Positions 12,563 through 63,469 of a stretch of DNA of 64,000 nucleotides are shown piece after piece. A program made the position numbers and the translations under genes. The notes beneath the pieces were generated by a model. The model was not told the origin of the DNA. It worked only from the letters and a program-made list of their open reading frames with translations, and did not search any database. The number at the start of each line of letters is the position of its first letter. Positions within the stretch are counted from its first letter, which is position 1. Origin of the DNA: Candidatus Woesearchaeota archaeon (lineage in GTDB: Archaea > Nanobdellota > Nanobdellia > SCGC-AAA011-G17 > UBA489); the NCBI GenBank assembly GCA_964366415.1, contig CAYITG010000001.1, forward strand, positions 650,195-714,194, read 5' to 3'.

Positions 12563-12563
12563 T

Positions 12564-15092: not shown

Positions 15093-15173
15093 ATTTGTAG
15101 TGAACAACGAGATAATTTTAATTTTATATATCCTCGTAACAATATTTATAAATTCGCGCTTCATTTTTCTTTT

Positions 15174-15725: not shown

Positions 15726-15774
15726 ACTAACCTTTTCCAAAGATTTATAAACACTTTTTTCTCCTTCTTTTTTT

Positions 15775-16479: not shown

Positions 16480-16542
16480 TATTTTTTCTCTTTTCGTAGT
16501 TAGAACACAATCTATATAAAGTAAGTTTGGCCTTTTTTTCTT

Positions 16543-17409
16543 ATGGTTTTGGAATCCTTAACCACTCCTCAAAAAGCAGAAAAGAGCCCGTGGGATCTCA
16601 TTTTTATTGGCGCCATGTATGCGGCCATTGGCGTATTCTTATCTATTTGGGTGTTTAAGGAAGAAGCGAGCATCGTGATGGTGTTATTAACTGTCATTGC
16701 TACAGTGCCCCTCGTGTTTAATACCATGCAATATGAAGAAAGCAAGGACATGGTTATTGCAAAAGAGCGAGCGCTCTTACGTGAACATGCCAAAGCTCTG
16801 ACTTTTTTTACCTTTATGTTTATGGGTTTTGTTTTTGCCTTTTCTTTTGCTTATATCTTTCTACCAGAAGAGCTTGTTACCGATATTTTTGACGCGCAAC
16901 TTAGCACTATTCAAAATATCAACAGCAAAGTTTCAGGAAGTGGTAGCTTAGAAGGTTCTTCTGTCGGTGGAACATTATTCTTACAAATTCTGGCTAATAA
17001 CTTGAAAGTTTTACTTTTTTGTTTATTTTTTGCTTTCTTCTATGGCGCTGGAGCCATGTTCATCCTCATTTGGAATGCATCAGTTATTAGCGCTGCCATT
17101 GGCACTTTTTTCAGGGACCACATCAGCGAATATGTCAGCCAGATTGGTTTTGCTAAGATTGCCGGCTATTTTCATATCTTTTCGTTAAGTTTATTAAGGT
17201 ACTTTATCCATGGAATCCCAGAAATCCTTGGATATTTCATCGGGGGGTTAGCAGGAGGAATCATTTCAGTTGCAGTGATTCGACATGATTTTGGCACACC
17301 ACTTTTCAATCGCATTTTGGTTGATAGTATGTATCTGATTATGTTGGCTATATTTGTTCTTGTCATTGCAGCGCTCATTGAAGTGTTTGTCACTCCTCTT
17401 TTCTTTTAA
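16543..17409 (+). CDS. SpoIIM/DUF95-like integral membrane protein
   Basis: It is a multi-TM protein with a central motif ILANNLKV...FYGAGAMFILIWNASVI that resembles stage II sporulation protein M family proteins. Confidence 0.4.
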   Translation: MVLESLTTPQKAEKSPWDLIFIGAMYAAIGVFLSIWVFKEEASIVMVLLTVIATVPLVFNTMQYEESKDMVIAKERALLREHAKALTFFTFMFMGFVFAFSFAYIFLPEELVTDIFDAQLSTIQNINSKVSGSGSLEGSSVGGTLFLQILANNLKVLLFCLFFAFFYGAGAMFILIWNASVISAAIGTFFRDHISEYVSQIGFAKIAGYFHIFSLSLLRYFIHGIPEILGYFIGGLAGGIISVAVIRHDFGTPLFNRILVDSMYLIMLAIFVLVIAALIEVFVTPLFF

Positions 17410-17410
17410 T

Positions 17411-20029
17411 ATGGAAACAGCTACAACTTTGGAACAGCGAAAACAGAAGCTTCTCTCTTTTTTTACTCAGAGAAAAAATCTTTTAGTTTACGTTGGCTTA
17501 TTTTTCATTCTTCTTTTAAGTTATATCATGCGTATACGTAACTTGCCCCTCTTGAAAGATGTGACGACTGGAAATTATATTCCTGTAGAACTTGATTCTT
17601 TTGCTTTCTTACGTTATGCACAATATATTCTAGAACATGGGCATATTATGGATTTTGATCTTATGCGTTATTATCCTAATGGATATTATCCTGCAAATGA
17701 ATTTTCTTTTGTTTCCCATTTTATTGTGTGGTTGTATAAATTTTTGCACATGTTTAATTCCAACCTCACTTTAGAGTATGTAGATGCTATTTATCCACCT
17801 CTCGCTTTTGTTGTTGGATTAATTTTCTTTTTCCTTCTTGTTCGCCGCCTTTTTGACTGGCGTGTTGCTCTTTTGGGTAGCGCATTCCTTGCCGTTATTC
17901 CTCCCTATATCTATCGCACTATGGCAGGATTTTCTGATAAGGAAGCATTAGGAATGATGTTTTTCTTTGTATCCTTGTATTTATTCACTGCTTCTTGGCA
18001 AACATCTTCTCTCAAAAAATCCCTCTCTCTTGCTGCTCTTTCAGGGATTATGACTGCACTTATGGCACTCTCTTGGGGGGGAGTTTACTTTGTTTTTCTT
18101 ACTATAGGACTCTATGCCCTTTATATGGTTGTTTTTGACTATTTTACTCCAAAAGAATATTATGATTATGCCACGTGGTGTATTTTTTCTATTCTTTTCT
18201 CGACGGTTGTTTTTACCACTAGATTTACTCTTTCCGGAGCGTTTAATTCCCTCCTCTTTATTCCTTTAAACTTGGCTCTTGTTGTCGGATTCTTTCGCTA
18301 TCTTATTTTACGTTATAACTTCTTTAATCTGCAACACCGCTTCCAAAAATTCTTTCCCTTAGGCATTACTACTGCGATCATCTCTTCACTTCTTATTTTA
18401 CTTCTTTTTGTCTCTACACATGGTTTCCAAAGTCTTTTTTACCGCGTACAAGATTTTATCACGAGCATTTTAACACCTTACGCTGCTAGCCGTTGGGGTG
18501 TTACTGTAGCTGAGAGCCATCAACCTTACATTAGCGATTGGTTTTCTCAATTTGGCAATTTTTATTTTTGGACATTCCTGATTGGCGTTTTACTTTTTGT
18601 TTTTTACACTTTTATTGTACGACTTAAACATCGCCTCCTTATCACTTCCGGATATGTCATTTTTCTTGTTTTCTTCCTCATGAGCAGATACTCTTCTCAA
18701 CCTCCATTTGATGGTGTTTCATCTTTAGCACGCCTTTTCTATTTTGGTTCTCTTCTCTTTTTTGTAGCCGGACTTCTTTTTATTTATTGGTACAGCTATA
18801 AACATCATAAGGAGTTATACTCTCAACTCTTTTCTTTGAAAAAAGAATATATCTTTGTTTTTGTATGGCTTTTTGTTCAACTTGTCACTGCACGCCTTGC
18901 TATTCGACTCCTTTTTGTTTTTGCTCCTCTTACTGCAATTATTGTAGCATTTCTTTATGTTAAAATCTATGATCTTTCTCGTTCCATCCCTTCAACCTTT
19001 GCTCGTTACGCTTTTGTCCTCGCTGTCGTTTATCTCTTATTTTCTCCTTTTGTTTCTATAAGCCTGGTTTCTTATTACCAACAAGATTTACGAACAGTGG
19101 GTTATAGTGGGCCGGCATATACTCAACAATGGCAAATTGCTATGGACTGGGTGAGAAAGAACACTCCTGAGGATGCCGTATTCGCTCATTGGTGGGACTA
19201 TGGATACTGGGTTCAGGGCGGCGGACAACGAGCCACGCTTACTGATGGTGGAAACTCAGGAGGTCCGGCATTAAATCATTTTATGGGGCGTAATGTTATT
19301 ACTGGAGCTAACTCAACAGAGGCCCTTGAATTCTTGAAAGTAAAGAAAGCAACACATCTCTTGATTATTTCTGATGAAATCGGCAAGTACGGCGCTTTTT
19401 CAAGCATCGGCTCTAACCAGACTTATGACCGTTTTTCTGTCATTCCCACTTTTACTCTTTCTCCATCAGAAAGTAAGGAACAACGTGATCAAACACTTTT
19501 TGTCTATCGTGGTTCTGCCGCATTTGATGAAGACATTTACTTTGATGGACAACTGTTCCCTGCACGCAGCTCAGGCATTGCTGCCATTATGGTTCCTATC
19601 TCTGTCAAAGATAACCGCACCAGCATCCAGCAACCTCGAGCAGTTGTTGTTTACCAAAATCAACAATATTCTATTCCTCTGAAATGTGTTTTTGTGGACC
19701 GCAAAGAAATCGTTTTCCCTGAACCAGGGATACGAGCATGCCTCCAGATTATTCCTGCTATCGAAGGAAATTCTGTCAATGTTCTTGGGGGAGGATTATA
19801 TCTTTCACAAAAAGTTTGGAACACACTCTTTACCCACATGTACCTCTTCGACCAGAAATGGGAAGGATTTACTTTAGCCTATACTGACGAACAATCTGTG
19901 CCTCTTGCCTTATATAATGGTCGAACTTTTGGGCCTCTTAAAATTTGGAGCATTACTTATCCTGATTCTATTCCCTATAACCCTCATTATGAAGAACTTG
20001 AATTAGATGCTTCTTTATCTTTAGTTTGA
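17411..20029 (+). CDS. aglB: oligosaccharyltransferase AglB (STT3 family)
   Basis: The N-terminal ~13 TM region is followed by a soluble C-terminal domain carrying the catalytic WWDYGYW motif. The start was moved to the internal ATG (METATT...) to avoid overlap with the upstream gene. Confidence 0.85.
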   Translation: METATTLEQRKQKLLSFFTQRKNLLVYVGLFFILLLSYIMRIRNLPLLKDVTTGNYIPVELDSFAFLRYAQYILEHGHIMDFDLMRYYPNGYYPANEFSFVSHFIVWLYKFLHMFNSNLTLEYVDAIYPPLAFVVGLIFFFLLVRRLFDWRVALLGSAFLAVIPPYIYRTMAGFSDKEALGMMFFFVSLYLFTASWQTSSLKKSLSLAALSGIMTALMALSWGGVYFVFLTIGLYALYMVVFDYFTPKEYYDYATWCIFSILFSTVVFTTRFTLSGAFNSLLFIPLNLALVVGFFRYLILRYNFFNLQHRFQKFFPLGITTAIISSLLILLLFVSTHGFQSLFYRVQDFITSILTPYAASRWGVTVAESHQPYISDWFSQFGNFYFWTFLIGVLLFVFYTFIVRLKHRLLITSGYVIFLVFFLMSRYSSQPPFDGVSSLARLFYFGSLLFFVAGLLFIYWYSYKHHKELYSQLFSLKKEYIFVFVWLFVQLVTARLAIRLLFVFAPLTAIIVAFLYVKIYDLSRSIPSTFARYAFVLAVVYLLFSPFVSISLVSYYQQDLRTVGYSGPAYTQQWQIAMDWVRKNTPEDAVFAHWWDYGYWVQGGGQRATLTDGGNSGGPALNHFMGRNVITGANSTEALEFLKVKKATHLLIISDEIGKYGAFSSIGSNQTYDRFSVIPTFTLSPSESKEQRDQTLFVYRGSAAFDEDIYFDGQLFPARSSGIAAIMVPISVKDNRTSIQQPRAVVVYQNQQYSIPLKCVFVDRKEIVFPEPGIRACLQIIPAIEGNSVNVLGGGLYLSQKVWNTLFTHMYLFDQKWEGFTLAYTDEQSVPLALYNGRTFGPLKIWSITYPDSIPYNPHYEELELDASLSLV

Positions 20030-20863
20030 CTTCTGAGCTATCACGTATAGTTCGTCGTAAAAATTACACGACATGCTTATTTTCATGAAGCTTGCCGGAA
20101 CAATTTTTTCTAATACTCTCATTTCTTTCCACACTCTCTGGCCCTTTTGAATAATTGTTCCCATCTTCCTCCATCTTCCTATATGCTTCATCTCTTTTAT
20201 TACAAACCCTTCACTTTCTAGCACTTTTCTTAATGTTTTTCTTGAAAAATATATAAGATGTTCATTTGGCTTGAAGTGTGGCCACCTTTTTTTTAGAACT
20301 TTAGCAGCATAACTGCCAACATCTGGAGTTACGATAAAGATTATTCCTTGAGGTTTTACTACTCTTTTTACTTGTTGTAATAATTCTTGCGGATTATGAA
20401 CGTGCTCAATCAAATCATTCATGATAACAGCATCAAAAAAATTTTTTTGAAATTTTACTTTTGCTACTGTTCCCTTGAAGAATTTTATACCTTTTTTGAG
20501 GCATTCTTTTTTAACTCCCTCATTAATGTCGATGCCATATGTTTTCCAACCAGATTCTTTAGCAACCTCAAGAAATGTTCCTATATTGCACCCTATGTCC
20601 AATATCTTTCCTTTTTCTGCATATTTTTCTATTATTTGTAACCTTTTTTGGAATGTAATATAATCTTCCTCTTTTGTTTCCTTATAATACACGCTCGGAG
20701 ATATTACCTCAGCATTATACAATCTTTGACTTTCTTTTACTGTTAGACGTGGATTGACATATACCAGTGAACATCTCTTGCACTTGACTACATCAAAACT
20801 TTCTTTATTGAATAGTATTTTATCGTCTCTTTCCTTGCATAAAGGACAGGCTGTTTCTTCCAT
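20021..20863 (-). CDS. class I SAM-dependent methyltransferase with an N-terminal zinc ribbon
   Basis: The N-terminus has CPLC...CKRC. Motif I is ILDIGCNIGTF, followed by the acidic motif II. Confidence 0.75.
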   Translation of the reverse strand: MEETACPLCKERDDKILFNKESFDVVKCKRCSLVYVNPRLTVKESQRLYNAEVISPSVYYKETKEEDYITFQKRLQIIEKYAEKGKILDIGCNIGTFLEVAKESGWKTYGIDINEGVKKECLKKGIKFFKGTVAKVKFQKNFFDAVIMNDLIEHVHNPQELLQQVKRVVKPQGIIFIVTPDVGSYAAKVLKKRWPHFKPNEHLIYFSRKTLRKVLESEGFVIKEMKHIGRWRKMGTIIQKGQRVWKEMRVLEKIVPASFMKISMSCNFYDELYVIAQKSN

Positions 20864-20921
20864 TTTCTTTCTTAACTCCTTCTTGGCGTTAATATTATAA
20901 AGCTTCCTTATTTTTTATATC

Positions 20922-21659
20922 ATGGTTTTCCCTATGGCAAAAAAACAAAGCGTCGCTATTGTTATTCCCGTGTATTACAAAGAGGCACCTACATTAGCTG
21001 ATCGCATCAAAGAGCAACTTCGTTTTTATCAAAAGGCACTTCGTAACTATAATTGGACTATTGTCATAGCTAATAATGGCCCTCGGAAAGATGTTCTTCC
21101 TGTTGTGCAGAGCCTTATGAAAAAAAATCCTCATCTTACTTATACCGATATTGATACGCCTGGAAGAGGCATCGCGCTTCGCCATACTTGGCTTCAGAGT
21201 AAATGTGACTTCCTTACTTATATGGATGCAGACCTTGCTACAAACCTTAACTCTTTTCCCCATATGCTTTCTCTTCTTTCAACAACACATGATGTTGTCA
21301 TTGGATCCCGATATGCTGCTGGAGCTCAAATACGTCGTACTTTTACTCGTTTGTTTTTATCTAAAGTATACAACTTCCTTCTTAATGTAGTACTTGACCT
21401 GGACATTGCTGACTCGCAATGTGGTTTTAAAGGAATTCGCAGAGAAGTTGCACAAAAAGTTATTCCCCATATCAAAGATCAAAAGTGGTTTTTTGATACA
21501 GAACTCCTTTTTGTAGCAAAAAAAATGGGATATTCTCTTCATGAAATTCCTGTTGAATGGTATGAACAGAATGAAACAAGCGTTAAACTCATTTCTGTTT
21601 CTTTGGACTATATCAAAAATATCTTACGATTACGCTTCCATCCTCCCACTACCACTTAG
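20922..21659 (+). CDS. GT2 glycosyltransferase, polyprenyl/dolichyl-phosphate sugar synthase-like (DPM1/GtrB-like)
   Basis: It has a DAD motif (YMDADLAT) and a C-terminal ELLFVAKKMGYSLHEIPVEW. The length is ~245 aa. Confidence 0.7.
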   Translation: MVFPMAKKQSVAIVIPVYYKEAPTLADRIKEQLRFYQKALRNYNWTIVIANNGPRKDVLPVVQSLMKKNPHLTYTDIDTPGRGIALRHTWLQSKCDFLTYMDADLATNLNSFPHMLSLLSTTHDVVIGSRYAAGAQIRRTFTRLFLSKVYNFLLNVVLDLDIADSQCGFKGIRREVAQKVIPHIKDQKWFFDTELLFVAKKMGYSLHEIPVEWYEQNETSVKLISVSLDYIKNILRLRFHPPTTT

Positions 21660-21730: not shown

Positions 21731-23299
21731 ATGCCCCGTCCTTCCCGCACCTCTTTACAGGTTATCCAAACTCCTGATTTTGTTAGTCATGCATCTGAAA
21801 ACAATAAAGTTGATATAGCCAAAACTTCTTATCAACAATTCCTTCTTTCACGTAAAGGTTTTCAAAAAAAGAAACTTTTACTTGTTATTCCTAACATTGT
21901 TGGCGATAAGATTGCCGCAACAGCCCCTTTGCCGGGCGTTGCTTATATTGCTGGGTTTGTGAGATCTGTAGGACATGATGTCCGTGTTGTTGATATGCGT
22001 GTTGATAGTCATATCAATCACCTTTACAGTTCTATTCGCGAATACCAGCCTGATTTTATTGGTCTTAGTTTTATGACGCAGCATGAATTTGATAAAATTT
22101 TTGAATTTATCAGCAATTTACATCAAACCTACCCTCAAGCGAAACTAGTTGTTGGAGGAGCCGGAGCATCAGGACTATATGACCGCGTCTTGCGTGAAAC
22201 TGCGGTTGATTATGTCATTACCCGTGAAGGCGAATACACTCTTGTTCAACTTATGGACCATATCCTTGATATAAAAAATATTAGTGGACTCATTTGGAAA
22301 CAAAATAGTGAGATTATCAAAAACCCTCATCGCAAATTTGAATTCAATGTTGATGAATTACCTTTTCCAGCGTATGATTTATTCCCCATGCATGCTTATG
22401 TTGATCGCAAGATTCCTGTCGTAACATCGCGTGGCTGCCCTTACAAGTGTACATTCTGTGCGAACAAAGCTTCTATGGGTGTCGCTTGGAGACCGCGTAG
22501 CCCTGAAAATATTTTACAAGAACTTAGTTTTTGGTATAACAAAGGATTTAACGTATTCCACTTTGTTGATGATAATTTCACCCTCGATATGCAACGCGCA
22601 GAAAAGATTTGTGATCTTATTATTCAGAGCGGTATCAAAATTAAATGGGATTTACGAAATGGTATCCGTGTAGATCGTGTCAATGAACAACTCCTAACGA
22701 AGATGAAACAATCTGGCTGTTTCTATTTTGCTTTTGGAATAGAATCTGTAGATCAAGATGTCTTAGATAAGATGAAGAAAGATTTGGCTGTTGAAAAAAT
22801 TGAGGAAGGAGTACGCGTAGCCGAGAAAGTTGGCATTCCCTTTGGCGGATTTTTTATTATAGGCCTTCTTGATGACACTTTTGAAAAATTCCTCAAGCTA
22901 TATAACTTTGCTCAATCGCATAACTTTTCTGAAGTACGTTTTTATAATCCTATTCCTTTTCCAGGAACTGAACTTTATGAAGAGCTCGTACAACGAAAAT
23001 TATTGCTTGTCGATCCTTCTGATTACTTGAATTATAACTCTAAGTTTAATGACGAACCTGTCTTTGCCACTCCAGAATTCACCTATGAAGAACGTAAAAA
23101 AGCCTTACGCATGGGACAAGATCTTGTTATGTCAAAATTTTTGAAGAAGGAATTTGGCTCTCTTCTTGGAACGTTTGCCTATCATGTTTGGAAAATGCCC
23201 TTGCTACGCCCTATCGCACAAGATGCGGGCATGTTCGCTTGGAAAACACTTCGGAAATTACGTCGAAGCTCCTTGCATGAGGGTTGGGCAACACATTAA
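21731..23299 (+). CDS. B12-binding domain radical SAM protein
   Basis: An N-terminal cobalamin-binding-like domain is followed by CPYKCTFC (Cx3Cx2C). Confidence 0.8.
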   Translation: MPRPSRTSLQVIQTPDFVSHASENNKVDIAKTSYQQFLLSRKGFQKKKLLLVIPNIVGDKIAATAPLPGVAYIAGFVRSVGHDVRVVDMRVDSHINHLYSSIREYQPDFIGLSFMTQHEFDKIFEFISNLHQTYPQAKLVVGGAGASGLYDRVLRETAVDYVITREGEYTLVQLMDHILDIKNISGLIWKQNSEIIKNPHRKFEFNVDELPFPAYDLFPMHAYVDRKIPVVTSRGCPYKCTFCANKASMGVAWRPRSPENILQELSFWYNKGFNVFHFVDDNFTLDMQRAEKICDLIIQSGIKIKWDLRNGIRVDRVNEQLLTKMKQSGCFYFAFGIESVDQDVLDKMKKDLAVEKIEEGVRVAEKVGIPFGGFFIIGLLDDTFEKFLKLYNFAQSHNFSEVRFYNPIPFPGTELYEELVQRKLLLVDPSDYLNYNSKFNDEPVFATPEFTYEERKKALRMGQDLVMSKFLKKEFGSLLGTFAYHVWKMPLLRPIAQDAGMFAWKTLRKLRRSSLHEGWATH

Positions 23300-23353
23300 T
23301 AAATCCCTTCTTCTACGAAACCTTTAAAAGTTTCTTTCTTTGATGCCTTTCTT

Positions 23354-24772
23354 ATGCGCATCGTCTTTATTACTCCACCTTATAGCATTAGCGAACGCTA
23401 CCACACCAAAGCTAAAATCAATAAAGGTTATCTTCCTCCTTTAGGTTTAGCTTCTATAGCGACAGTACTCAAAGAAGCAGGACATCATATAAAAATTCTT
23501 GATCTCCAAGTGCTTAATTACTCTTTAGAGAACATTCGTCAAGAGCTCACCGCATTTTCACCAGATCTTATTGCACTTTCTGCTGTTACTCCCACCATTG
23601 ATAAAGCATATCTTCTTGCAAATTTTATTCGTACTCATTTTGGTGTTCCCCTTATATTTGGCGGAGTACATCCCTCTATGTATCCGGAACAGACCCTTAA
23701 AGAATGCGTAGCTGTCGATGTCGTCGTTATTGGAGAAGCTGAATATACTTTCCGCGAACTTGCTGCCCTGCTTGAAAAGGGGACTCCTCTTAACAATCTA
23801 AAAGATGTACGAGGGGTTTGCTATAGAAATAAAAGTGGCAAAATAATAAGGAATTTACCACGTCCACTTATCATGAATCTTAATGAATTACCTATAGCCT
23901 CGCGTGAATTTTTTGATATGGACAAATACATTCCCTTACCAAATCAATACAAAATTCTTCCTGTTACCAATATGATGGTTGGCAGAGGGTGTCCTTATGG
24001 GCAATGCACTTTCTGTTTTGAAGCTGGAGATTTTAAACCTCTTTATCGTCGTGTTACTGTTGATAGGGCTATTGAAGAGATTCAAATGCTTATACATAAA
24101 CATGGCATTCGAGAGATTTCTTTTTGGGATGATGTTTTTCTTATTGGAACACGGTGGACCACTGATTTTTTTGAAGCTTTAAAACGAGAAAAGATAGATA
24201 TACAATGGTCTTGTTATGGATACTTTAATTATCTTACCCATGATATGCTGAAACAAGCAGCTTCTGTTGGGTGTTGGAATATTTTCTTTGGTATTGAAAG
24301 TGGAAATCAAATGTTGCTTGACACCATCAAAAAAGGATTTAATTTAGACAAAGCAAAGCAAGTGATTGCTTGGACACGTGAAGCAGGCATTGAAACACGA
24401 GGTTCTTTTATTTTAGGATTGCCAAATGAAACACCCAAACTTGCTATGGAAACTATCAACTTCGCTATTGATCTTGATTTAGACTACGCGCAGTTTACTC
24501 TTAATACCCCCTTCCCTGGAACTGAGATGTGGAAAACAGGTGGACGATATGGGGCGATTGATACTACATTTAAAGATTACTCCGTTCATAATCCTGTTTA
24601 TTTACCGAAGGGTTATTCTACTAAGGAAGAACTTCTTGCCATGCAGAAACTTGCTTATCGTAAATTTTATTTCAGACCACATTATATCCTTAAGCACCTC
24701 AAGAGAATTCGTACTTTTACTGATGTTAAAAAATATGCTTCTGGACTACGTTTCTTAATAGGTATGCAGTAA
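23354..24772 (+). CDS. B12-binding domain radical SAM protein
   Basis: An N-terminal B12-binding-like domain is followed by CPYGQCTFC. The Cys spacing is the variant Cx4Cx2C. Confidence 0.75.
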   Translation: MRIVFITPPYSISERYHTKAKINKGYLPPLGLASIATVLKEAGHHIKILDLQVLNYSLENIRQELTAFSPDLIALSAVTPTIDKAYLLANFIRTHFGVPLIFGGVHPSMYPEQTLKECVAVDVVVIGEAEYTFRELAALLEKGTPLNNLKDVRGVCYRNKSGKIIRNLPRPLIMNLNELPIASREFFDMDKYIPLPNQYKILPVTNMMVGRGCPYGQCTFCFEAGDFKPLYRRVTVDRAIEEIQMLIHKHGIREISFWDDVFLIGTRWTTDFFEALKREKIDIQWSCYGYFNYLTHDMLKQAASVGCWNIFFGIESGNQMLLDTIKKGFNLDKAKQVIAWTREAGIETRGSFILGLPNETPKLAMETINFAIDLDLDYAQFTLNTPFPGTEMWKTGGRYGAIDTTFKDYSVHNPVYLPKGYSTKEELLAMQKLAYRKFYFRPHYILKHLKRIRTFTDVKKYASGLRFLIGMQ

Positions 24773-24848: not shown

Positions 24849-26447
24849 ATGGGCAACCTCAAACACTTTTTTTATGAACATCGCATTTTTTTCTTTTTGT
24901 TACTTCTTGCCCTCATTTTACGCCTCATTTTCCTTCCTTATGCAAAATTTGAGAATGAAACTGCTCGCGACCTTGTTCTTGCCAATGAAATGATAGATCA
25001 TCATAATCTCCGCCTAAAGGGACTTTCCCCGGAAGTTGATCCCGGTTCTCTACAACAATCTTTTGGGCCCATCTTTTATTACTTCTTAGCATTTTCTCAG
25101 TTTATTTTTAGGCATCCTTATTCTGCAGTGGTTCTCATCACTCTCTTTACTCTCTTAGGGATTTTCCTTTTTTATCTCTTTGTCGATCGTTACTACGGAC
25201 GAAAAGCCGCCATTCTTTCTGCAGCATTCTTTTCCTTCAATCCCTGGATTTTTGCTTTTGTTTCCTTGAATTTTGCAAATCCGAGTTTCCTTCTTCCTTT
25301 TGTTATTCTCCTTTATTTTTCACTTCATAAAATTATTATTGATCATCAAGACGCCTACCTTATCTTAACTGCTGTTTCTCTTGCCTCGCTTTTACAGTTT
25401 CATCTATCTTCTTTGCTTCTTTTACCCATTGTCTTTCTTTTTTTGATTCTTTTCCGTCCTTCTCTTTTTCTTAGCAAATATTTTTTCCTTGCTTTAATTG
25501 TTGGATTATTATTCTTTATCCCTTACATCATTTATACTTTGCAGCATGATTCTCTTGCACGAACATTAGATTTTGTTTTTACTTCACGTTATGAAGCAAC
25601 ACGTTTCGAAAACTTTCGTGATTCTGTTAGTATTCCTTTTATGTTGGCAACAACGTATCTTGGCCCTTACCTTCTTGGCTCTTTTCACATTTTCAATAAT
25701 ACCTTTTTTGAATACTTCTTCCTTTTTTTAGATCTTGTTATCTCTTCTTTTATTGGCTTAAGCATCCTTTTTATTCTTCGTACACTTTTTTCGCGACCTT
25801 TTTTTACACGAGACCATCTTAAAGCATTTTTACTCCTTGGATGGTTCCTTTTCCCCATTATTCTTGCTATTATTCCTGGAACTAATGTTTCGCCGCACTA
25901 TTTATTCATCACTTATCCTTCACAATTTCTTCTTCTTGCTCTTTTTTTCCTTCGCCCCTCTTTTTCAAAATATCTTCGTTTTTCCTTTATCGCCCTCACA
26001 CTTCTTGCTTATATTATCTATAATATCTCTTTTTATATTTCCATTATTGCTTATGGGGGAACAGACGGCATCTATGGAATTCCCCTCCAGAGCAAAATTA
26101 ATGTCCTCACTTATGTTAACGCTGCACAACCACAAGGTACTTTGCTTTTCTATGGTTATGTGAAACCAGAGTATGAGTACTTGCAACCTTACTATGCACA
26201 GCATATCACTCTTGATGTTATTGATCATTATACAAAGAACATGACTGGCTACATCCTTCTTGACTTTTATAGCAGAGGCAACTTTGCTGAACGGAATATG
26301 ACTCATGAAGAACGCGCTTTTTACCAAAATCTTCCTTCTGTTCATGTAGGACATATCCGACTTGTTTCTCTTGAAGATTATGCATCTGTGATATCCATAG
26401 ATAACTTTAAAAGGACATCTCTTAGGCAATCTTTAGATGATTTATGA
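24849..26447 (+). CDS. GT-C fold membrane glycosyltransferase (ArnT/PMT-like, family 39/83-like)
   Basis: It is 532 aa with >10 TM segments. An acidic ENETARD motif sits in the first external loop. Confidence 0.45.
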   Translation: MGNLKHFFYEHRIFFFLLLLALILRLIFLPYAKFENETARDLVLANEMIDHHNLRLKGLSPEVDPGSLQQSFGPIFYYFLAFSQFIFRHPYSAVVLITLFTLLGIFLFYLFVDRYYGRKAAILSAAFFSFNPWIFAFVSLNFANPSFLLPFVILLYFSLHKIIIDHQDAYLILTAVSLASLLQFHLSSLLLLPIVFLFLILFRPSLFLSKYFFLALIVGLLFFIPYIIYTLQHDSLARTLDFVFTSRYEATRFENFRDSVSIPFMLATTYLGPYLLGSFHIFNNTFFEYFFLFLDLVISSFIGLSILFILRTLFSRPFFTRDHLKAFLLLGWFLFPIILAIIPGTNVSPHYLFITYPSQFLLLALFFLRPSFSKYLRFSFIALTLLAYIIYNISFYISIIAYGGTDGIYGIPLQSKINVLTYVNAAQPQGTLLFYGYVKPEYEYLQPYYAQHITLDVIDHYTKNMTGYILLDFYSRGNFAERNMTHEERAFYQNLPSVHVGHIRLVSLEDYASVISIDNFKRTSLRQSLDDL

Positions 26448-27448
26448 AACGTTCTCTTGTGCAATATCTGATCTGTCCTGTTTGTAAACACGAATCCCTT
26501 CGTCTTCATCCTTTTATTCATCATAAAGATGACACTCAAGAGGGTATTCTTCTTTGCGCATCGTGCAATCAATGGTATCTTATTGATGATTATATCTTAG
26601 AGATTTTACCACTTAATCTGAACATTCCAAGAAGAAAACAATTCTATCAAAAAAATATCCACTATTTCAAAGATCTTCATCTTCGTGAGTCTTCATTATC
26701 TCATTCTGATCATGCTACCCTTGAAAAAATTAAACAATCTACTTTTTTCGATGATTTCTCTGGCCACTATGTTCTTGAAACTCAAACCTTTTGGAGAGTT
26801 TATTATGAACGCACGCTTCATTTCTTTCAACGCACTCTTGGAAGGAAAAGCTTTATTCTTGATATTGGATGCGGCAATGGACTTGGCTCTGCTTCGCTTT
26901 TACAAGATCATACTGTGATTGGCGTTGATATCTCCCGCAGTATGGTTAAGAATGCTCTCAAACGACTTGCTGCGCAACCACACTCTCTAAGCACTTACCT
27001 TATTGCTGATGCTGAGAACTTGCCTTTCAAGAAAAATATTTTTGATGCTTGCATAGGCTTTGGCATCTTACATCATGTTGTTCATCCAGACACTTGTATT
27101 GGAGAAATTTCCCGCACTCTGAAAAAAGGTGGATCTTACTATGGACATGAAAATAACAAAACTGTTTTTCGTCCTTTTTTTGATTTTTTGATGAAAATCT
27201 TCACCTTGTGGTCAGAGGAAGCAGGTGAGCATCAACTTCTTTCTTCTGATGAACTTCGCCTCTTATGCAAACGCTATGGTTTGGCTGTAGATATACACAC
27301 TTGTATTTTCCTTCCTCCCCATATTTTTAATTTCCTTGATTATTCCTTTGCTAGAAAACTTATGGACTGGAGCGACAACCTTTTTCATTCTTTCCCCTGG
27401 TTACGACAGCAGGGCGGAACTCTTGTTTTTCGTGCGCGCAAATATTAA
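26444..27448 (+). CDS. SAM-dependent methyltransferase with an N-terminal Trm112-like zinc-ribbon domain
   Basis: It has CPVC...CASC (Trm112/UPF0434-like) and a motif I ILDIGCGNGLGS. Confidence 0.7.
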   Translation: MKRSLVQYLICPVCKHESLRLHPFIHHKDDTQEGILLCASCNQWYLIDDYILEILPLNLNIPRRKQFYQKNIHYFKDLHLRESSLSHSDHATLEKIKQSTFFDDFSGHYVLETQTFWRVYYERTLHFFQRTLGRKSFILDIGCGNGLGSASLLQDHTVIGVDISRSMVKNALKRLAAQPHSLSTYLIADAENLPFKKNIFDACIGFGILHHVVHPDTCIGEISRTLKKGGSYYGHENNKTVFRPFFDFLMKIFTLWSEEAGEHQLLSSDELRLLCKRYGLAVDIHTCIFLPPHIFNFLDYSFARKLMDWSDNLFHSFPWLRQQGGTLVFRARKY

Positions 27449-28974
27449 TTTGCTGCATTTGTTGTGTTTATAGTATACAAACAAACTTCTTCGTCCTTTT
27501 TTATTTCTTCAAAATCACATTCTTTAAATCTTTGGCATTGCGGGTCTATGGCAAGGATATTTGTCGTATTAAAAAACATCATTTCATTCCTAAACTCCAT
27601 GCACGTCAGATTGTCATTTTGTTTTGTGAATTTTTCTAACCTTAACAAGTACTCACTAGATGCTAAGGGCGGCGACCATCCTTCCGGAGTGCTTAGATTG
27701 TGGTAAATGCTTGCGTATGCATATAGTGGCTTTGAGTATGGTGTCGGATACTCTGCCGTATCTAAGGGGCCTAGAATAATAAATTTGTCATTTACCTCTG
27801 AAAATATCTCTATCATTCTTTTCTCTAAAGGAGTATTTTCTCTGAACCAGGGTGTGTATAGCATATTCATCCCAACACTCCCTATTATCACTGCAATCAT
27901 GAACCCAGGAATAATTTTTTTCTTTATGCCTTGCATGATCCATTGTTCTTCCTTGAAAAAGACTGTTAAAATGCAAAATAAGAAAAACATCAAATAAGGA
28001 TCTTGAGAAATGTTTCTTAAAAGTGGAATTAAGGTTGTTATTCTCGATGTGTATGCTGCTGCGAGTATGCCTATCGGCACATAAAACATCCTTTCTCTCC
28101 TTGGTGTATCTGTTCTTTTAAGGTAAGCATAGATAAGAATGATTAATATTAGGGGAATAATGAATGCCAGCATGTTTGTTATCATTGTTTCTTTCGTAAA
28201 TTCAAACACTCTCTTTCCTTCATGAAATGCAAGCAAAGAAGAAGCACTTAAACCCTTAAGAAAATCCAGGATCCACCATGACGCCAGCACAAATGATAAC
28301 AAGAAACTACTAACAATCATCATCCTTTCTTTTTTGTCTTTTTTATACAAGAAAAGAGAGAGAAAAAATACTGCTGCTAGAATTGTTTCTTGATAATGTG
28401 TTATTAACATTGCTGCATAAATCACGCTGCTCAAAAGAAAAATCTTGTTTATTCTCTTTTCTTTGAAATACCATATTATAGAGAATAGCAGCACTAATAA
28501 AATCAAATTTAACATTGCATGCTGCCTGCCATTCCTGATCACACTTCCTATCATTGATGCATTTGCGAAAAATAATATAAACCACGCCAGGCTACTTGTT
28601 CTTGTCAGACGCATTCTTTTACCAAAGTAAAGACTGACCAATCCAGCAATGATAAAGAGAGCAACCATAGAAGCATATGTTGCAACATTCACATTACCAA
28701 AAAGCGTATACAAAGGATATGCGAAGAAATACCATCCAGGAGAGTTTATTTGAAGGTGAATGAATCCATTATACCAATAGTGACAAAATTCATGAAAACC
28801 ACATACTTTTAGAAAATGCAGTTGCGCCATATACGCGCTGAGATCATTTGTAGCATCGAATGGAAATGTTCCTATTAATTTTGCCTGATTGACTAATCTT
28901 ACTATCAGATTTATACTTCCTATGAGTATAATGGCAATTTTCCAATGTTTTTCCACTCCTTCTTGGATTGACAT
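27445..28974 (-). CDS. polytopic membrane protein (possible GT-C glycosyltransferase or polymerase-like)
   Basis: It is 509 aa with ~12 TM segments and sits in the glycosylation island. It has no diagnostic motif. Confidence 0.35.
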   Translation of the reverse strand: MSIQEGVEKHWKIAIILIGSINLIVRLVNQAKLIGTFPFDATNDLSAYMAQLHFLKVCGFHEFCHYWYNGFIHLQINSPGWYFFAYPLYTLFGNVNVATYASMVALFIIAGLVSLYFGKRMRLTRTSSLAWFILFFANASMIGSVIRNGRQHAMLNLILLVLLFSIIWYFKEKRINKIFLLSSVIYAAMLITHYQETILAAVFFLSLFLYKKDKKERMMIVSSFLLSFVLASWWILDFLKGLSASSLLAFHEGKRVFEFTKETMITNMLAFIIPLILIILIYAYLKRTDTPRRERMFYVPIGILAAAYTSRITTLIPLLRNISQDPYLMFFLFCILTVFFKEEQWIMQGIKKKIIPGFMIAVIIGSVGMNMLYTPWFRENTPLEKRMIEIFSEVNDKFIILGPLDTAEYPTPYSKPLYAYASIYHNLSTPEGWSPPLASSEYLLRLEKFTKQNDNLTCMEFRNEMMFFNTTNILAIDPQCQRFKECDFEEIKKDEEVCLYTINTTNAAN

Positions 28975-49882: not shown

Positions 49883-50848
49883 ATGACTCTTTTCCTCCTT
49901 GATTTACCGCAACAAAGAATTTCTCTTGAAGAGCTATGTTTCTCTTTAACATCCTGTCAACATACCTTTACTGAAGAAATTCGTGACACTTACCGAGAAC
50001 TTATTCAACGTTTTTATGAAGATCATCGAAAAAGCACTCCACTACAATATGACCCTGATTCTAACCCTATTTTTACCTTAGATTCTTTTTGTTCTTCTGG
50101 AAAAAGAACCTTTTCTTTAGGCAGTGTTGAATTTAAGGACTATTTTGCTTTACGCAATCTTCTTTATCGGACAAAGGAAGATGGACGTTTACTTCGACAA
50201 TTTGTTCCTTTAAGCATGACTGCTACTTTAGAAACTGCTGACCATTTTTTGGTGCTTGGACATCGCAAAGGAAATCATCTTTCTGATCGCTATTTACCCC
50301 CTGCTGGTTTTTTGCAGTATTGTTCAAATATCACTTCGGATTACTTCAGACAGAAATGCGCTGAAGAATTTTCTGAGGAGTTAGGCATAGATTTTAATGA
50401 TGTTTCCTATATTGGCCTGACAGGTGATACTCGAGATTCGTTCCTCGACACTTGTACTTTTTATGGCCAGACTTCTTTGACAAGAGCCGAAGTTCAGAAA
50501 GCTTGGGAGTCTCGCGGTGCTAAGGATGAACATTCTCATCTTATTTACATTCCTTCTTCCTTAGAAGCCATTAGTGCATTCCTCCATGGAACTTTTACTG
50601 GAGAAGTTAATCCTTCTATGAATATTCATTTTGAGAATGGTATTTGTATTTCCGGTCCTCGAGAAATTTTAGGCAAACGCTATCAACAGATTGAAAATGG
50701 TGTTGGCGCTTATGCAGCTTTCCTTTCTTTGTCTCAACCTCTTGCTGAAGTCCAGTCATTACTTCATTCCCTTGCTTCTGCAGGCATTATTGAAGGAGTT
50801 GTAATGAAAAATATTAATGATGAACAGCCCTATCTTCTTTCTTCTTAA
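49883..50848 (+). CDS. hypothetical protein (possible degenerate Nudix-like fold)
   Basis: It starts 2 nt after the kinase gene. The segment LVLGHRKG..YLPPAGFL...DYFRQKCAEEFSEELGI loosely resembles the Nudix box but lacks canonical residues. Confidence 0.35.
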   Translation: MTLFLLDLPQQRISLEELCFSLTSCQHTFTEEIRDTYRELIQRFYEDHRKSTPLQYDPDSNPIFTLDSFCSSGKRTFSLGSVEFKDYFALRNLLYRTKEDGRLLRQFVPLSMTATLETADHFLVLGHRKGNHLSDRYLPPAGFLQYCSNITSDYFRQKCAEEFSEELGIDFNDVSYIGLTGDTRDSFLDTCTFYGQTSLTRAEVQKAWESRGAKDEHSHLIYIPSSLEAISAFLHGTFTGEVNPSMNIHFENGICISGPREILGKRYQQIENGVGAYAAFLSLSQPLAEVQSLLHSLASAGIIEGVVMKNINDEQPYLLSS

Positions 50849-63070: not shown

Positions 63071-63469
63071 TTATTCTTGAATGTATTCCTGGCCCGTTGC
63101 AAGCGCCATCTCTGCCTTTTTCAGTTCTTTACCTAAATATGCTGCGTGATCAAGCCTGGTGATATATTTTCTTTCATTTAACATGAAATAATAGATCTGT
63201 TGTGCAATTTTTCCACGAAATTCCTCTACAAGCTGATTTTGGTAATTACATATGCCGGCAATAATCTCTTTGCTCTCTCTGTCGATGTCAACTAAGATGT
63301 AGCAACTAGGATCTTGGTGATAATCCCGAATGTGGTCATATTCTGGGCATTGCGTTGATTTAAATTCTGAAACTTTTTTTATACTTTTTGTCCAGCTTTT
63401 TCCTTTTTCTATATTTTTCTTTAGTTCTTCTTCATTTTTATAATTTGGATTTGTCATCTTTGGAGACAT
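63071..63469 (-). CDS. small hypothetical protein
   Basis: ORF of 132 aa with no recognisable motifs. Confidence 0.4.
   Translation of the reverse strand: MSPKMTNPNYKNEEELKKNIEKGKSWTKSIKKVSEFKSTQCPEYDHIRDYHQDPSCYILVDIDRESKEIIAGICNYQNQLVEEFRGKIAQQIYYFMLNERKYITRLDHAAYLGKELKKAEMALATGQEYIQE

What the first reader, a model, noticed from the sequence alone, without database searches (positions are those of the whole stretch)
21731..24772. Four B12-binding radical SAM enzymes embedded in the glycosylation island (two adjacent here; others at 51645..53171 and 60175..61791)
Four paralogous cobalamin-binding-domain radical SAM proteins (CPYKCTFC, CPFNCNFC, CPYSCNFC, plus one with the variant Cx4Cx2C spacing CPYGQCTFC) are interleaved with glycosyltransferases, flippases and SAM methyltransferases.

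Class B radical SAM methylases (such as Fom3, GenK, TsrM, HpnP) methylate unactivated carbons. In this context they could C-methylate (or otherwise radical-modify) sugars of the N-glycan or the dolichol carrier.

That would be an essentially unexplored type of archaeal glycan modification. Four copies suggest multiple distinct modifications.
Basis: inference. Interest (0 to 1): 0.7.

Follow-up and report, generated by a model that had tools for sequence, protein, structure and literature searches.

The report
Cobalamin-type radical SAM enzymes in glycan island
A tiny uncultivated archaeon carries four different vitamin-B12-type radical enzymes inside its cell-surface sugar-building gene island, and relatives of these enzymes sit in similar sugar gene clusters in many uncultivated archaea and bacteria, which points to an unstudied kind of radical sugar tailoring whose exact chemistry cannot be read from sequence.

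Summary
All four ORFs have a B12-binding domain plus a radical SAM domain. The quoted cysteine motifs are exact, including the Cx4Cx2C variant in the second gene. That variant is conserved in 72 of its 120 closest homologues and also occurs in OxsB.

The four are distant paralogues (23-33% identity). None reaches the curated cut-off of any named family. BchE, HpnJ and ApyD score best but fall far short.

The first pair lies in a same-strand gene run: Dol-P-hexose-synthase-like GT2, rSAM1, rSAM2, GT-C (PMT_2), methyltransferase. This run starts about 0.9 kb downstream of AglB.

In 77 relatives' loci from a genome collection and 78 from metagenomes, 55-62% of the immediately adjacent genes are SAM methyltransferases, GT2, GT1/GT4, GT-C or further radical SAM genes. 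These loci come from DPANN archaea, Patescibacteria, Elusimicrobia and others.

So the link to glycan synthesis is well supported, and it is not specific to archaea. C-methylation is the most likely chemistry but is not shown. Ring contraction, dehydration or lipid-carrier modification remain open. I found no literature on this association.

The parts
21731..23299 (+). rSAM1: 522-aa B12-binding-domain radical SAM protein. B12 domain about 21896-22252, radical SAM core about 22418-22912, cluster motif CPYKCTFC at 22436-22459. It has a 55-aa N-terminal extension shared only with close relatives.
23354..24772 (+). rSAM2: 472-aa B12-binding-domain radical SAM protein. B12 domain about 23423-23764, radical SAM core about 23978-24466, variant cluster motif Cx4Cx2C (CPYGQCTFC) at 23990-24016.
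51645..53171 (-). rSAM3: 508-aa B12-binding-domain radical SAM protein, the most divergent of the four. CPFNCNFC at 52536-52559. It lies directly upstream, on the same strand, of a sugar-1-phosphate nucleotidyltransferase gene.
60175..61791 (-). rSAM4: 538-aa B12-binding-domain radical SAM protein. CPYSCNFC at 61201-61224. It lies between a Zn-dehydrogenase gene and a GT1/GT4-type glycosyltransferase gene.
20922..21659 (+). Small soluble GT2, first gene of the run GT2-rSAM1-rSAM2-GT-C-MT. Its best matches are polyprenyl-phosphate sugar synthases: P. furiosus Dol-P-Man synthase, ArnC, haloarchaeal dolichyl-P hexose transferase and PgfS. All are weak.
24849..26447 (+). PMT_2-family GT-C membrane glycosyltransferase with about 10 hydrophobic segments. 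It lies 76 nt downstream of rSAM2 and overlaps the next gene by 4 nt.
26444..27448 (+). Class I SAM methyltransferase with an N-terminal Trm112-like zinc ribbon, last gene of the run.
20021..20863 (-). Methyltransf_23 SAM methyltransferase, divergent from the GT2 gene. This is the type of methyltransferase most often found next to rSAM2 relatives.
27445..28974 (-). PTPS_related (PF10131) polytopic membrane protein with about 8 hydrophobic segments, convergent with the run. It is conserved next to rSAM2 and the methyltransferase in close relatives (L008-L011).
17354..20029 (+). AglB/STT3 oligosaccharyltransferase (WWDYG present). Its stop codon lies about 0.9 kb upstream of the GT2 start. The listed TTG start is probably too far upstream.
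50814..51620 (-). Sugar-1-phosphate nucleotidyltransferase, immediately downstream of rSAM3 on the same strand.
63071..63469 (-). Small PterinBD-DUF4346 protein, similar to the C-terminal part of MtrA, one gene away from rSAM4. The same kind of small protein lies directly upstream of rSAM2 relatives in three other DPANN loci.
7958..10639 (+). S-layer-like protein (PF05124) with a signal-peptide-like N-terminus and 9 N-x-S/T sequons. It is a likely acceptor of the glycan made by the island.

Best explanation
The four genes encode soluble, cytoplasmic radical SAM enzymes of the cobalamin-binding-domain class (class B). I propose that they tailor sugar units of surface-glycan precursors before export.

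For the pair in the finding, the gene order suggests a lipid-linked monosaccharide branch:
1. The small GT2 loads a hexose onto dolichyl phosphate.
2. rSAM1 and rSAM2 modify that Dol-P-sugar at unactivated carbons, or modify a lipid-linked oligosaccharide. They would use a 5'-deoxyadenosyl radical and, most probably, methylcobalamin, giving C-methylation.
3. The neighbouring SAM methyltransferases add O- or N-methyl groups.
4. The product is flipped across the membrane.
5. The PMT_2 GT-C enzyme transfers it to the glycan that AglB attaches to S-layer or other surface proteins.

rSAM3 sits in an operon with a nucleotidyltransferase and may act at the nucleotide-sugar level.

Shown: domain content, cluster motifs, fold, operon-like arrangement, and conserved glycan-gene neighbourhood in both domains of life. 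Inferred: cobalamin binding, the substrate, the order of steps, and the methylation chemistry.
For: - Domains and motifs are present.
- The AF2 model of rSAM2 has pLDDT 93.7. Its best structural matches are all B12-domain-type radical SAM enzymes: AprD4, TsrM, MgmA, OxsB, CysS and TokK.
- The N-terminal domain of the rSAM2 family aligns by sequence to cobalamin-binding domains of OxsB, TokK, CysS, 4q37 and MetH. AprD4, which does not bind cobalamin, aligns only over the radical SAM core. The B12-domain 'GG' motif is kept in all four; the SxL motif is seen in the rSAM2-family consensus.
- The four rSAMs, the GT2 and the methyltransferases have no hydrophobic segments, while the GT-C proteins have 8-10.
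- Same-strand gaps in the run are 71, 54, 76 and -4 nt.
- The GT2's best solved relatives are Dol-P-Man synthase and ArnC.
- Neighbourhood conservation for rSAM2: of 132 genes flanking rSAM2 relatives, 26 are SAM methyltransferases, 17 GT2, 17 PMT_2, 15 radical SAM and 7 GT1/GT4. Frequency decays with distance.
- Neighbourhood conservation for rSAM1, in an independent metagenome set: of 119 flanking genes, 18 are radical SAM, 15 GT1/GT4, 15 methyltransferases, 14 GT2 and 4 PMT_2.
- Individual loci show GT2-rSAM-GT-C arrangements in Nanoarchaeia, Elusimicrobia and others, and AglB-linked rSAM3.
Against: - There is no biochemical or glycan-structure evidence, and every relative is from an uncultivated organism.
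- Sequence cannot separate methylases from non-methylases.
- The best curated and solved relatives include non-methylating sugar enzymes.
- The GT2 match to Dol-P-sugar synthases is weak (39 bits) and below all curated cut-offs.
- PMT_2 adjacency is strong for the rSAM2 family (17/132) but weak for rSAM1 relatives (4/119).
- 12 of 77 rSAM2-family loci show no glycan-type gene within three genes. One deltaproteobacterial locus has eight tandem B12-rSAM genes next to housekeeping genes.
- Most metagenome hits to rSAM1 are only 30-37% identical and may be other paralogues.
- Neighbour genes were called with a simple longest-ORF script.
- From general knowledge, DPANN archaea cannot make cobalamin and would have to scavenge it.
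Confidence: 0.4

Rival explanations
1. Same substrates (lipid-linked or nucleotide-linked sugars of the surface glycan), but the chemistry is not methylation. Candidates are radical ring contraction to a cyclitol or furanose-like unit (as proposed for HpnJ on hopanoid-glucosamine, Cds on GDGT-hexose, and OxsB on a deoxynucleotide), 1,2-diol dehydration to a deoxysugar (AprD4), or epimerisation.
For: - HpnJ is the best or second-best curated family for rSAM2, rSAM3 and rSAM4.
- AprD4 is the top sequence and structure match in the PDB for rSAM1-3, and a close second for rSAM4.
- rSAM2 shares the Cx4Cx2C motif with OxsB.
- HpnJ and Cds are genetically linked to ring contraction of lipid-bound hexoses.
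- Non-methylating enzymes fall in the largest B12-rSAM group, without distinguishing features.
- Class I SAM methyltransferases already sit next door, so methylation needs no radical enzyme.
Against: - Scores to HpnJ (82-195 bits against 577.6) and AprD4 (62-99 against 500) are far below family cut-offs.
- AprD4's N-terminal domain does not align and it uses Cx3Cx3C.
- Most characterised members of the class are methyltransferases.
- There is no AprD3-like reductase partner and there are no hopanoid genes in the window.
Confidence: 0.3
2. The enzymes modify the isoprenoid part of the system rather than the sugar. Targets could be the dolichol or polyprenol carrier, or scavenged membrane lipids, through methylation or cyclisation as done by HpnP/HpnR, GrsA/GrsB, Hgm and MoeK5.
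For: - Apart from MCR-modifying enzymes, the archaeal B12-radical SAM enzymes with known roles are lipid modifiers: GrsA/B and Hgm.
- HpnR and the ladderane-lipid family give moderate scores.
- LPG_synthase_TM membrane proteins are neighbours in 4 of 132 cases and in L004 and L091.
- The polyprenyl phosphate carrier is common to archaea and bacteria, so the cross-domain distribution does not exclude it.
Against: - The tightest neighbours are sugar-acting enzymes and SAM methyltransferases, not lipid-synthesis genes.
- rSAM3 is in an operon with a sugar nucleotidyltransferase.
- No isoprenoid or GDGT genes are in the window.
- From general knowledge, DPANN and Patescibacteria generally lack lipid synthesis.
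- Scores to HpnR (53-124 against 650) and the ladderane family (60-147 against 360) are below cut-off.
Confidence: 0.12
3. They are protein or peptide modifiers that methylate or crosslink residues of the S-layer or other secreted proteins, or of a RiPP, in the manner of MgmA, Mmp10, PoyC or ApyD. They would only be co-located with glycosylation genes because both act on the same surface proteins.
For: - MgmA (9ccb) is the best solved sequence match of rSAM4 and among the best of the others.
- ApyD (a RiPP enzyme) is the top curated hit for rSAM3 and among the top three for rSAM2 and rSAM4.
- SPASM radical SAM genes are neighbours in 6 of 119 rSAM1-related loci.
- An S-layer-like gene lies 11 kb upstream.
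Against: - Scores are far below cut-offs: ApyD 85-163 against 750, MgmA 40-121 against 360.
- Intergenic gaps of 54-76 nt leave no room for a precursor peptide.
- No protease, transporter or RiPP-recognition genes are nearby.
- The neighbours are overwhelmingly glycan enzymes.
Confidence: 0.08

Closest known systems
HpnJ (hopanoid biosynthesis-associated B12-domain radical SAM, TIGR03471)
   Same: It has the same two-domain architecture. It is genetically required to convert a lipid-bound hexosamine, made by a glycosyltransferase (HpnI), into a cyclitol ether, that is, a radical enzyme acting on a sugar attached to a lipid. It is the best or second-best curated family for rSAM2, rSAM3 and rSAM4.
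   Different: Scores are 82-195 bits against a cut-off of 577.6. There are no hopanoid genes. The context is AglB, GT2 and GT-C rather than the hpn cluster. The HpnJ chemistry itself is unproven.
BchE (anaerobic Mg-protoporphyrin IX monomethyl ester cyclase, TIGR02026)
   Same: It is the best-scoring curated family for rSAM1, rSAM2 and rSAM4, and has the same architecture. Automatic annotations of relatives often carry this name.
   Different: Scores are 61-197 bits against a cut-off of 481. There are no (bacterio)chlorophyll genes in the window or in relatives' loci. The name on relatives is an over-annotation.
AprD4 (apramycin radical SAM 1,2-diol dehydratase, PDB 6fd2)
   Same: It is the top structural match (TM 0.75-0.78) and the top PDB sequence match of the radical SAM core. 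Its substrate is a sugar, paromamine.
   Different: AprD4 does not bind cobalamin. Its N-terminal domain does not align with the rSAM2 family, and its cluster motif is Cx3Cx3C. The NF033070 score is 62-99 against 500.
OxsB (oxetanocin cobalamin-dependent radical SAM, PDB 5ul2)
   Same: It has the same unusual Cx4Cx2C cluster motif as rSAM2 (CDYSRCTFC against CPYGQCTFC). The B12 domain and core align over profile positions 32-351. It acts on a sugar ring by ring contraction.
   Different: Identity is 17-18%. OxsB is 744 aa with an extra N-terminal domain, and it sits in a nucleoside-antibiotic cluster with the HD-domain partner OxsA (the partner is from my own knowledge).
Cobalamin-dependent radical SAM C-methyltransferases (MgmA/QCMT 9ccb, TokK, CysS, TsrM; sugar-acting GenK, GenD1, MoeK5)
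   Same: They have the same class and fold. MgmA is the best solved sequence match of rSAM4. GenK, GenD1 and MoeK5 show that the class can C-methylate sugars or glycolipid antibiotics (listed).
   Different: Identity to the solved ones is 16-19%. The MgmA family score is 40-121 against 360. GenK, GenD1 and MoeK5 could not be compared here because no sequences were available in the tools. Those enzymes belong to antibiotic pathways, not primary surface glycans.
Two-step lipid-phosphate-sugar branches: AglD/AglS (Haloferax N-glycan mannose), ArnC/ArnT, GtrB/GtrC
   Same: A small GT2 that resembles polyprenyl-phosphate sugar synthases is paired with a PMT_2/GT-C transferase in one operon next to AglB. 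The GT2 + GT-C pairing recurs around relatives.
   Different: Here one to three B12-radical SAM genes and SAM methyltransferases lie between or beside the two transferases. To my knowledge, and in the literature searches, that is not described for any of these systems.

Membership tests
Radical SAM superfamily | Three-cysteine motif (CxxxCxxC or a variant) for the SAM-binding [4Fe-4S] cluster, plus a PF04055 core above the gathering score. | tested here: met
   PF04055 scores 67-91 bits against 29.5 in all four. Motifs are CPYKCTFC, CPYGQCTFC, CPFNCNFC and CPYSCNFC. The three Cys are invariant in 26-sequence alignments of the rSAM1 and rSAM2 families. A GGE-like G[IF]E[ST] motif is aligned in all four.
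Class B (cobalamin-binding-domain) radical SAM enzymes | An N-terminal Rossmann-type B12-binding domain (PF02310) fused to the radical SAM core. | tested here: met
   PF02310 scores 46-88 bits against 32.1. The rSAM2-family profile aligns its N-terminal domain to OxsB, TokK, CysS, 4q37 and the MetH B12 domain. The AF2 model (pLDDT 93.7) matches TsrM, MgmA, OxsB, CysS and TokK over both domains.
Class B (cobalamin-binding-domain) radical SAM enzymes | Cobalamin is actually bound and used in catalysis. | not testable with these tools
   AprD4 and ArsL homologues carry related domains without binding cobalamin. This needs UV-visible, metal or cofactor analysis of purified protein.
B12-dependent radical SAM C-methyltransferases | Methyl transfer from methylcobalamin to a substrate radical, with SAH and 5'-deoxyadenosine as co-products. 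| not testable with these tools
   No sequence or structural feature separates methylases from non-methylases in the largest group.
BchE (TIGR02026) | Score at or above the curated equivalog cut-off of 481.35 bits. | tested here: not met
   Scores are 149.8, 196.8, 61.0 and 191.4 bits for rSAM1-4.
HpnJ (TIGR03471) | Score at or above the curated equivalog cut-off of 577.6 bits; hopanoid (hpn) gene context. | tested here: not met
   Scores are 132.2, 195.1, 81.8 and 179.0 bits. There are no hopanoid genes in the window.
AprD4 diol dehydratase (NF033070) | Score at or above 500 bits; Cx3Cx3C cluster motif; cobalamin-free N-terminal domain. | tested here: not met
   Scores are 78.6, 98.6, 62.0 and 87.7 bits. 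The motifs here are Cx3Cx2C or Cx4Cx2C. The N-terminal domain does not align with AprD4.
MgmA / MCR glutamine C-methyltransferase (TIGR04014) | Score at or above 360 bits. | tested here: not met
   Scores are 102, 97.6, 40 and 120.6 bits.
Glycan-cluster-associated B12-radical SAM (proposed grouping, not a curated family) | Conserved neighbourhood of GT2, GT-C, GT1/GT4 and SAM methyltransferase genes around orthologues in unrelated lineages. | tested here: met
   About 82 of 132 (62%) flanking genes of rSAM2 relatives and about 66 of 119 (55%) flanking genes of rSAM1 relatives fall in these classes. Frequency decays with distance. 65 of 77 loci have such a gene within three genes. rSAM3 relatives are in AglB or GT clusters. 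Exceptions exist.
Polyprenyl-phosphate sugar synthase GT2 (DPM1/ArnC/GtrB type), for the gene at 20922-21659 | Membership of a curated Dol-P or Und-P sugar synthase family. | tested here: inconclusive
   The best PDB hits are Dol-P-Man synthase 5mlz (E 6e-9) and ArnC 9hwj. NCBIfam PgfS, haloarchaeal dolichyl-P hexose transferase and ArnC score 27-39 bits against cut-offs of 375-529.

The most novel reading that the evidence does not exclude
B12-dependent radical SAM enzymes form a widespread, uncharacterised tailoring layer of cell-surface glycan synthesis in small-genome episymbionts of both domains (DPANN archaea and Patescibacteria) and in many anaerobic bacteria. They would act on polyprenyl-phosphate-linked sugars between a GT2 loader and a GT-C transferase. 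The products would be C-methylated, branched, deoxy or carbocyclic sugars not yet seen in N-glycans or S-layer glycans. The small DUF4346 pterin-binding-like protein that recurs next to them might take part in cofactor or methyl supply.
Probability: 0.3. Interest if true: 0.8.

Novelty: new variant of a known kind. Interest (0 to 1): 0.6.

Why it matters
Radical, cobalamin-dependent chemistry on sugars is known so far from antibiotic pathways (gentamicin, apramycin, moenomycin, oxetanocin) and from two lipid head groups (hopanoid cyclitol ether, calditol). It is not known from primary protein- or surface-glycan synthesis.

If these enzymes tailor lipid-linked sugars, several things follow:
- N-glycans and S-layer glycans of DPANN and CPR organisms would contain sugar types invisible to standard glycan analysis.
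- Organisms with about 1 Mb genomes that cannot make B12 would nevertheless spend several genes on B12-dependent surface chemistry, which bears on their dependence on hosts.
- Part of the largest, still unexplored group of B12-radical SAM enzymes would gain a testable substrate class and a compact operon (GT2-rSAM-rSAM-GT-C-MT) suitable for reconstitution.

Tried and rejected
- Assignment to a named family. NCBIfam scans of all four proteins gave only sub-threshold hits, so BchE, HpnJ, HpnR, BzaD, PhpK, ApyD, MgmA, AprD4, KedN5, TsrM and ArsL memberships are rejected.
- Deciding the chemistry from structure. The AF2 model matches methylases and non-methylases about equally, and the 2026 review says no distinguishing features are known.
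- Literature. Searches for aglB + radical SAM, B12-binding radical SAM + glycosyltransferase + archaea or DPANN, a six-term combination, and DUF4346 returned nothing relevant. The calditol synthase paper (PMC6305003) is not held.
- A cultured relative with a known glycan. The 79 loci kept from the genome collection are described as MAGs, uncultured or Candidatus organisms.
- A solved GT-C relative. The PDB sequence search with the PMT_2 protein found nothing meaningful.
- AlphaFold database fold search: the library was not available.
- Foreign-island idea: GC content is even, 0.35-0.41 across the window.
- RiPP idea: there is no room for precursor genes in the 54-76 nt gaps.
- Sequencing-error explanation of Cx4Cx2C: rejected because 72 of 120 homologues share it and OxsB has it.
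- Phylogenetic placement against GenK, GenD1, Fom3, GrsA/B and Cds could not be done because their sequences were not obtainable with the tools.

Full report
**Observation.** The window has ORFs at exactly the stated coordinates: 21731-23299(+), 522 aa; 23354-24772(+), 472 aa; 51645-53171(-), 508 aa; 60175-61791(-), 538 aa.
- Each carries an N-terminal PF02310 B12-binding domain (46-88 bits, gathering score 32.1) and a PF04055 radical SAM core (67-91 bits, gathering score 29.5).
- The quoted cysteine motifs are literally present: CPYKCTFC, CPYGQCTFC, CPFNCNFC and CPYSCNFC.
- The same four protein sequences are recorded as called genes in public assemblies of a Nanoarchaeota (DPANN) MAG with a 756-kb contig.
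- The four are only 23-33% identical to each other. They are old paralogues, that is, four separate subfamilies, not recent duplicates.

**Family placement.** Against NCBIfam, no protein reaches the curated cut-off of any named B12-radical SAM family.
- The best scores are BchE (61-197 bits, cut-off 481), HpnJ (82-195, cut-off 578) and ApyD (85-163, cut-off 750).
- HpnR, BzaD, PhpK, MgmA, the ladderane-lipid family, AprD4, KedN5 and TsrM score lower still.
- Against PDB sequences the closest are AprD4 (6fd2), MgmA (9ccb, identified through), OxsB, CysS and TokK, all remote.
- Each of the three subfamilies searched (rSAM1, rSAM2, rSAM3) has 1,400-3,100 relatives at E<=1e-10. Orthologues at 60-78% identity occur in related Nanoarchaeota, and relatives at about 40% identity occur across many phyla.

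**The Cx4Cx2C variant.** The one-residue insertion in the cluster loop of rSAM2 is not an error. It is present in 72 of the 120 best homologues, while the other 48 have the canonical spacing. The three cysteines are invariant in a 26-sequence alignment. The profile alignment to OxsB shows that OxsB has the same spacing (CDYSRCTFC), whereas AprD4 has Cx3Cx3C.

**Structure and cofactor.**
- An AlphaFold2 model of rSAM2, built on the 26-sequence alignment, is confident (pLDDT 93.7, pTM 0.91).
- Foldseek against the PDB returns AprD4 (TM 0.75-0.78), TsrM, MgmA, OxsB, CysS and TokK with similar scores, then the MiaB/RimO methylthiotransferases.
- At sequence-profile level, AprD4 aligns only over the radical SAM core (profile positions 167-412).
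- In contrast, the N-terminal domain aligns to the cobalamin-binding domains of OxsB, TokK, CysS, 4q37 and even methionine synthase.
- The B12-domain 'GG' motif is conserved in all four paralogues; the SxL motif is seen in the rSAM2-family consensus.
- A 2026 review notes that AprD4 does not bind cobalamin. Taken together, this favours real cobalamin binding here, but it does not prove it.
- None of the four has a hydrophobic segment, so they are soluble and presumably cytoplasmic.

**Context in the window.** The region from about 17.3 kb to the end is a glycosylation island.
- Glycosyltransferases: AglB/STT3, a GPT-type initiating transferase (PF00953), several GT2, three GT1/GT4-type and three GT9, plus two PMT_2 GT-C proteins and a PTPS_related polytopic membrane protein.
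- Other functions: two Wzx-like flippases, three class I SAM methyltransferases, a NodU/CmcH-type carbamoyltransferase, a GHMP sugar kinase, a sugar-1-phosphate nucleotidyltransferase, an epimerase and GFO/ADH oxidoreductases.
- An S-layer-like protein with nine sequons lies upstream.
- GC content is even across the window.

**Arrangement of the four genes.**
- The pair in the finding is part of a same-strand run: GT2 (20922-21659), rSAM1, rSAM2, PMT_2 GT-C (24849-26447), Trm112-like-plus-methyltransferase (26444-27448). The gaps are 71, 54, 76 and -4 nt.
- A Methyltransf_23 gene is divergent on one side, and the PTPS_related membrane protein is convergent on the other.
- The GT2 is small and soluble. 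Its best solved relatives are the Pyrococcus Dol-P-mannose synthase and ArnC, and its best NCBIfam hits are PgfS, a haloarchaeal dolichyl-phosphate hexose transferase and ArnC. All are weak.
- rSAM3 lies directly upstream of the nucleotidyltransferase on the same strand.
- rSAM4 sits between a Zn-dehydrogenase gene and a GT1 gene.

**Comparative context, rSAM2 family.** A profile of the rSAM2 family recovered 282 relatives in a species-representative genome collection, and the best 79 loci were kept.
- They come from Woese-, Pace-, Iain-, Aenigm- and Altiarchaeota, Methanosarcinales and Methanobacterium MAGs, Patescibacteria (Saccharibacteria, Kuenenbacteria), Elusimicrobia, Deltaproteobacteria, Nitrospirae/Nitrospinae, Scalindua and others. 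All are uncultivated.
- I called genes with a simple longest-ORF script and scanned the 132 genes immediately flanking the relative against Pfam.
- Result: 26 class I SAM methyltransferases, 17 GT2, 17 PMT_2, 15 radical SAM (12 with a B12 domain), 7 GT1/GT4, 4 LPG_synthase_TM and 3 DUF4346.
- With a uniform phmmer labelling, methyltransferases drop from 18% at position +-1 to mostly 3-7% further out. GT2 drops from 12-17% at +-1 to +-3 to 3-8% beyond +-5.
- 65 of 77 loci have a glycan-type, methyltransferase or further B12-rSAM gene within three genes, and 53 of 77 have a glycosyltransferase.

**Comparative context, other families.**
- Pre-annotated contigs show the same picture. A Nanoarchaeia contig has MT-rSAM-GT2-rSAM plus a third rSAM next to a flippase and GPT. 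An Elusimicrobia contig has GT2-rSAM-x-rSAM-PMT_2-GT2. A 1.2-Mb metagenome contig has PMT_2-GT2 beside the rSAM.
- rSAM3 relatives sit beside STT3-flippase-GT2-GT2 and GT2-MT-PMT_2 in another DPANN genome, and in a GT1 cluster in a Parcubacterium.
- rSAM1 relatives in two large genomes are flanked by GT2, GT4-type, methyltransferase, PMT_2 and carbamoyltransferase genes and by more B12-rSAM genes.
- An independent scan of JGI metagenome contigs with an rSAM1 profile gave, among 119 flanking genes, 18 radical SAM (9 with B12, 6 SPASM), 15 GT1/GT4, 15 methyltransferases, 14 GT2 and 4 PMT_2.

**Exceptions.** Twelve of 77 rSAM2-family loci show no such neighbour. Among them:
- A deltaproteobacterial chromosome has eight B12-rSAM genes in a row next to riboflavin and CDP-diacylglycerol genes.
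- A Planctomycetales locus and a Methanosarcinales locus lie among housekeeping genes.

At about 40% identity these may have other roles.

**Mechanism.**
- What is shown: four soluble class-B-type radical SAM proteins, an operon-like arrangement with a polyprenyl-phosphate-sugar-synthase-like GT2 and a GT-C transferase, and a glycan-gene neighbourhood conserved across both domains.
- What follows from established knowledge: radical SAM enzymes need SAM and a low-potential reductant, so they work in the cytoplasm. GT-C enzymes use lipid-phosphate-linked sugar donors on the outer face of the membrane. Any modification must therefore be made on a nucleotide sugar, a lipid-phosphate monosaccharide or a lipid-linked oligosaccharide before flipping.
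- What I infer: the GT2 makes a Dol-P-hexose, rSAM1 and rSAM2 modify it, methyltransferases add further methyl groups, and the GT-C enzyme transfers the product to the glycan that AglB finally attaches to surface proteins. rSAM3 more likely acts at the nucleotide-sugar stage.
- Chemistry: I rank C-methylation first, because every characterised group of the class contains C-methyltransferases. However, HpnJ, Cds and OxsB-type ring contraction and AprD4-type dehydration are real alternatives. The review states that sequence cannot tell them apart.
- Less likely readings: modification of the isoprenoid carrier (precedents GrsA/B and Hgm) or of surface proteins (precedents MgmA and ApyD). Neither is excluded.

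**Comparison with the known, and novelty.**
- The proteins are members of the radical SAM superfamily and of the B12-binding-domain class by the tested criteria. They are not members of any curated functional family.
- As a system, the nearest analogues are the two-step lipid-phosphate-sugar branches AglD/AglS, ArnC/ArnT and GtrB/GtrC. None of these is described with radical SAM genes inserted.
- Five full-text literature searches found nothing on this association.
- I therefore rate it a new variant of a known kind. The enzyme class and radical sugar tailoring are known from antibiotics and two lipid head groups. Their systematic placement in primary surface-glycan clusters of DPANN, CPR and other uncultivated lineages appears undescribed.

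**Limits.**
- All evidence is from sequence and gene order.
- Neighbour genes were called crudely.
- Many metagenome hits to rSAM1 are only 30-37% identical.
- The GT2 assignment is weak.
- Cobalamin binding, substrate and chemistry are untested.
- Comparison with GenK, GenD1, MoeK5, GrsA/B and Cds sequences was not possible with the tools.

Noticed in passing
window 63071-63469 (-); L039:3240-3845, L055:396-833, L076:50-637: A small PterinBD-DUF4346 protein, similar to the C-terminal part of MtrA and of dihydropteroate-synthase-like proteins, lies one gene from rSAM4. The same kind of protein lies directly upstream of rSAM2 relatives in three other loci, and 3 of 132 flanking genes carry the domain. 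No paper mentions DUF4346. It may be linked to cofactor or methyl supply for the B12 enzymes.
   Followed up: partly
L032 (CP070770.1, Deltaproteobacteria MAG chromosome), about 10001-21119: Eight B12-binding radical SAM genes lie in a row, resembling rSAM1, rSAM2 and rSAM4. They sit next to riboflavin-synthesis, CDP-diglyceride synthase and chemotaxis genes, with no glycosyltransferase detected. This is a different use of the same families: iterative lipid, RiPP or polymer modification?
   Followed up: partly
window 7958-10639 (+) and 1827-5282 (+): There is an S-layer-like protein (PF05124; 893 aa, signal-like N-terminus, 9 N-x-S/T sequons). A 1151-aa secreted-looking protein with no Pfam match lies upstream of the island. 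Both are probable glycosylation targets.
   Followed up: partly
window 33859-34914, 38446-39345, 39331-40458; 32098-33858: Three GT9 (heptosyltransferase-family) genes and a NodU/CmcH-type carbamoyltransferase sit in an archaeal N-glycosylation island. GT9 is typical of bacterial LPS cores, so this suggests bacterial-type glycan chemistry or gene transfer.
   Followed up: no
window 14019-15725 (+): A RimK-like ATP-grasp ligase is followed by a VanX-type D-Ala-D-Ala dipeptidase (Peptidase_M15) in a DPANN archaeon. This is unexpected for an organism without peptidoglycan.
   Followed up: no
window 16543-17409 / 17354-20029; L087:10602-13596: The listed AglB ORF starts at a TTG that overlaps the preceding SpoIIM-family gene by 56 nt, and this exact 891-aa sequence is not in the protein collection. 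The true start is probably the ATG about 20 codons downstream. SpoIIM-AglB adjacency recurs in another DPANN contig (L087).
   Followed up: partly
window 53339-54706 (-) and 56863-57942 (+): Two proteins have only weak matches to LanM C-terminal, pectate-lyase, GH127 or GH88 domains, which may mean an alpha/alpha-toroid fold. They flank a GFO/IDH-ADH fusion protein. The first may be the first gene of a same-strand run with rSAM3 and the nucleotidyltransferase. Function unknown.
   Followed up: no
L092-L171 (metagenome loci of rSAM1 relatives): SPASM-domain radical SAM genes are immediate neighbours in 6 of 119 cases. Some clusters therefore combine B12-type and SPASM-type radical enzymes with glycosyltransferases.
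   Followed up: no
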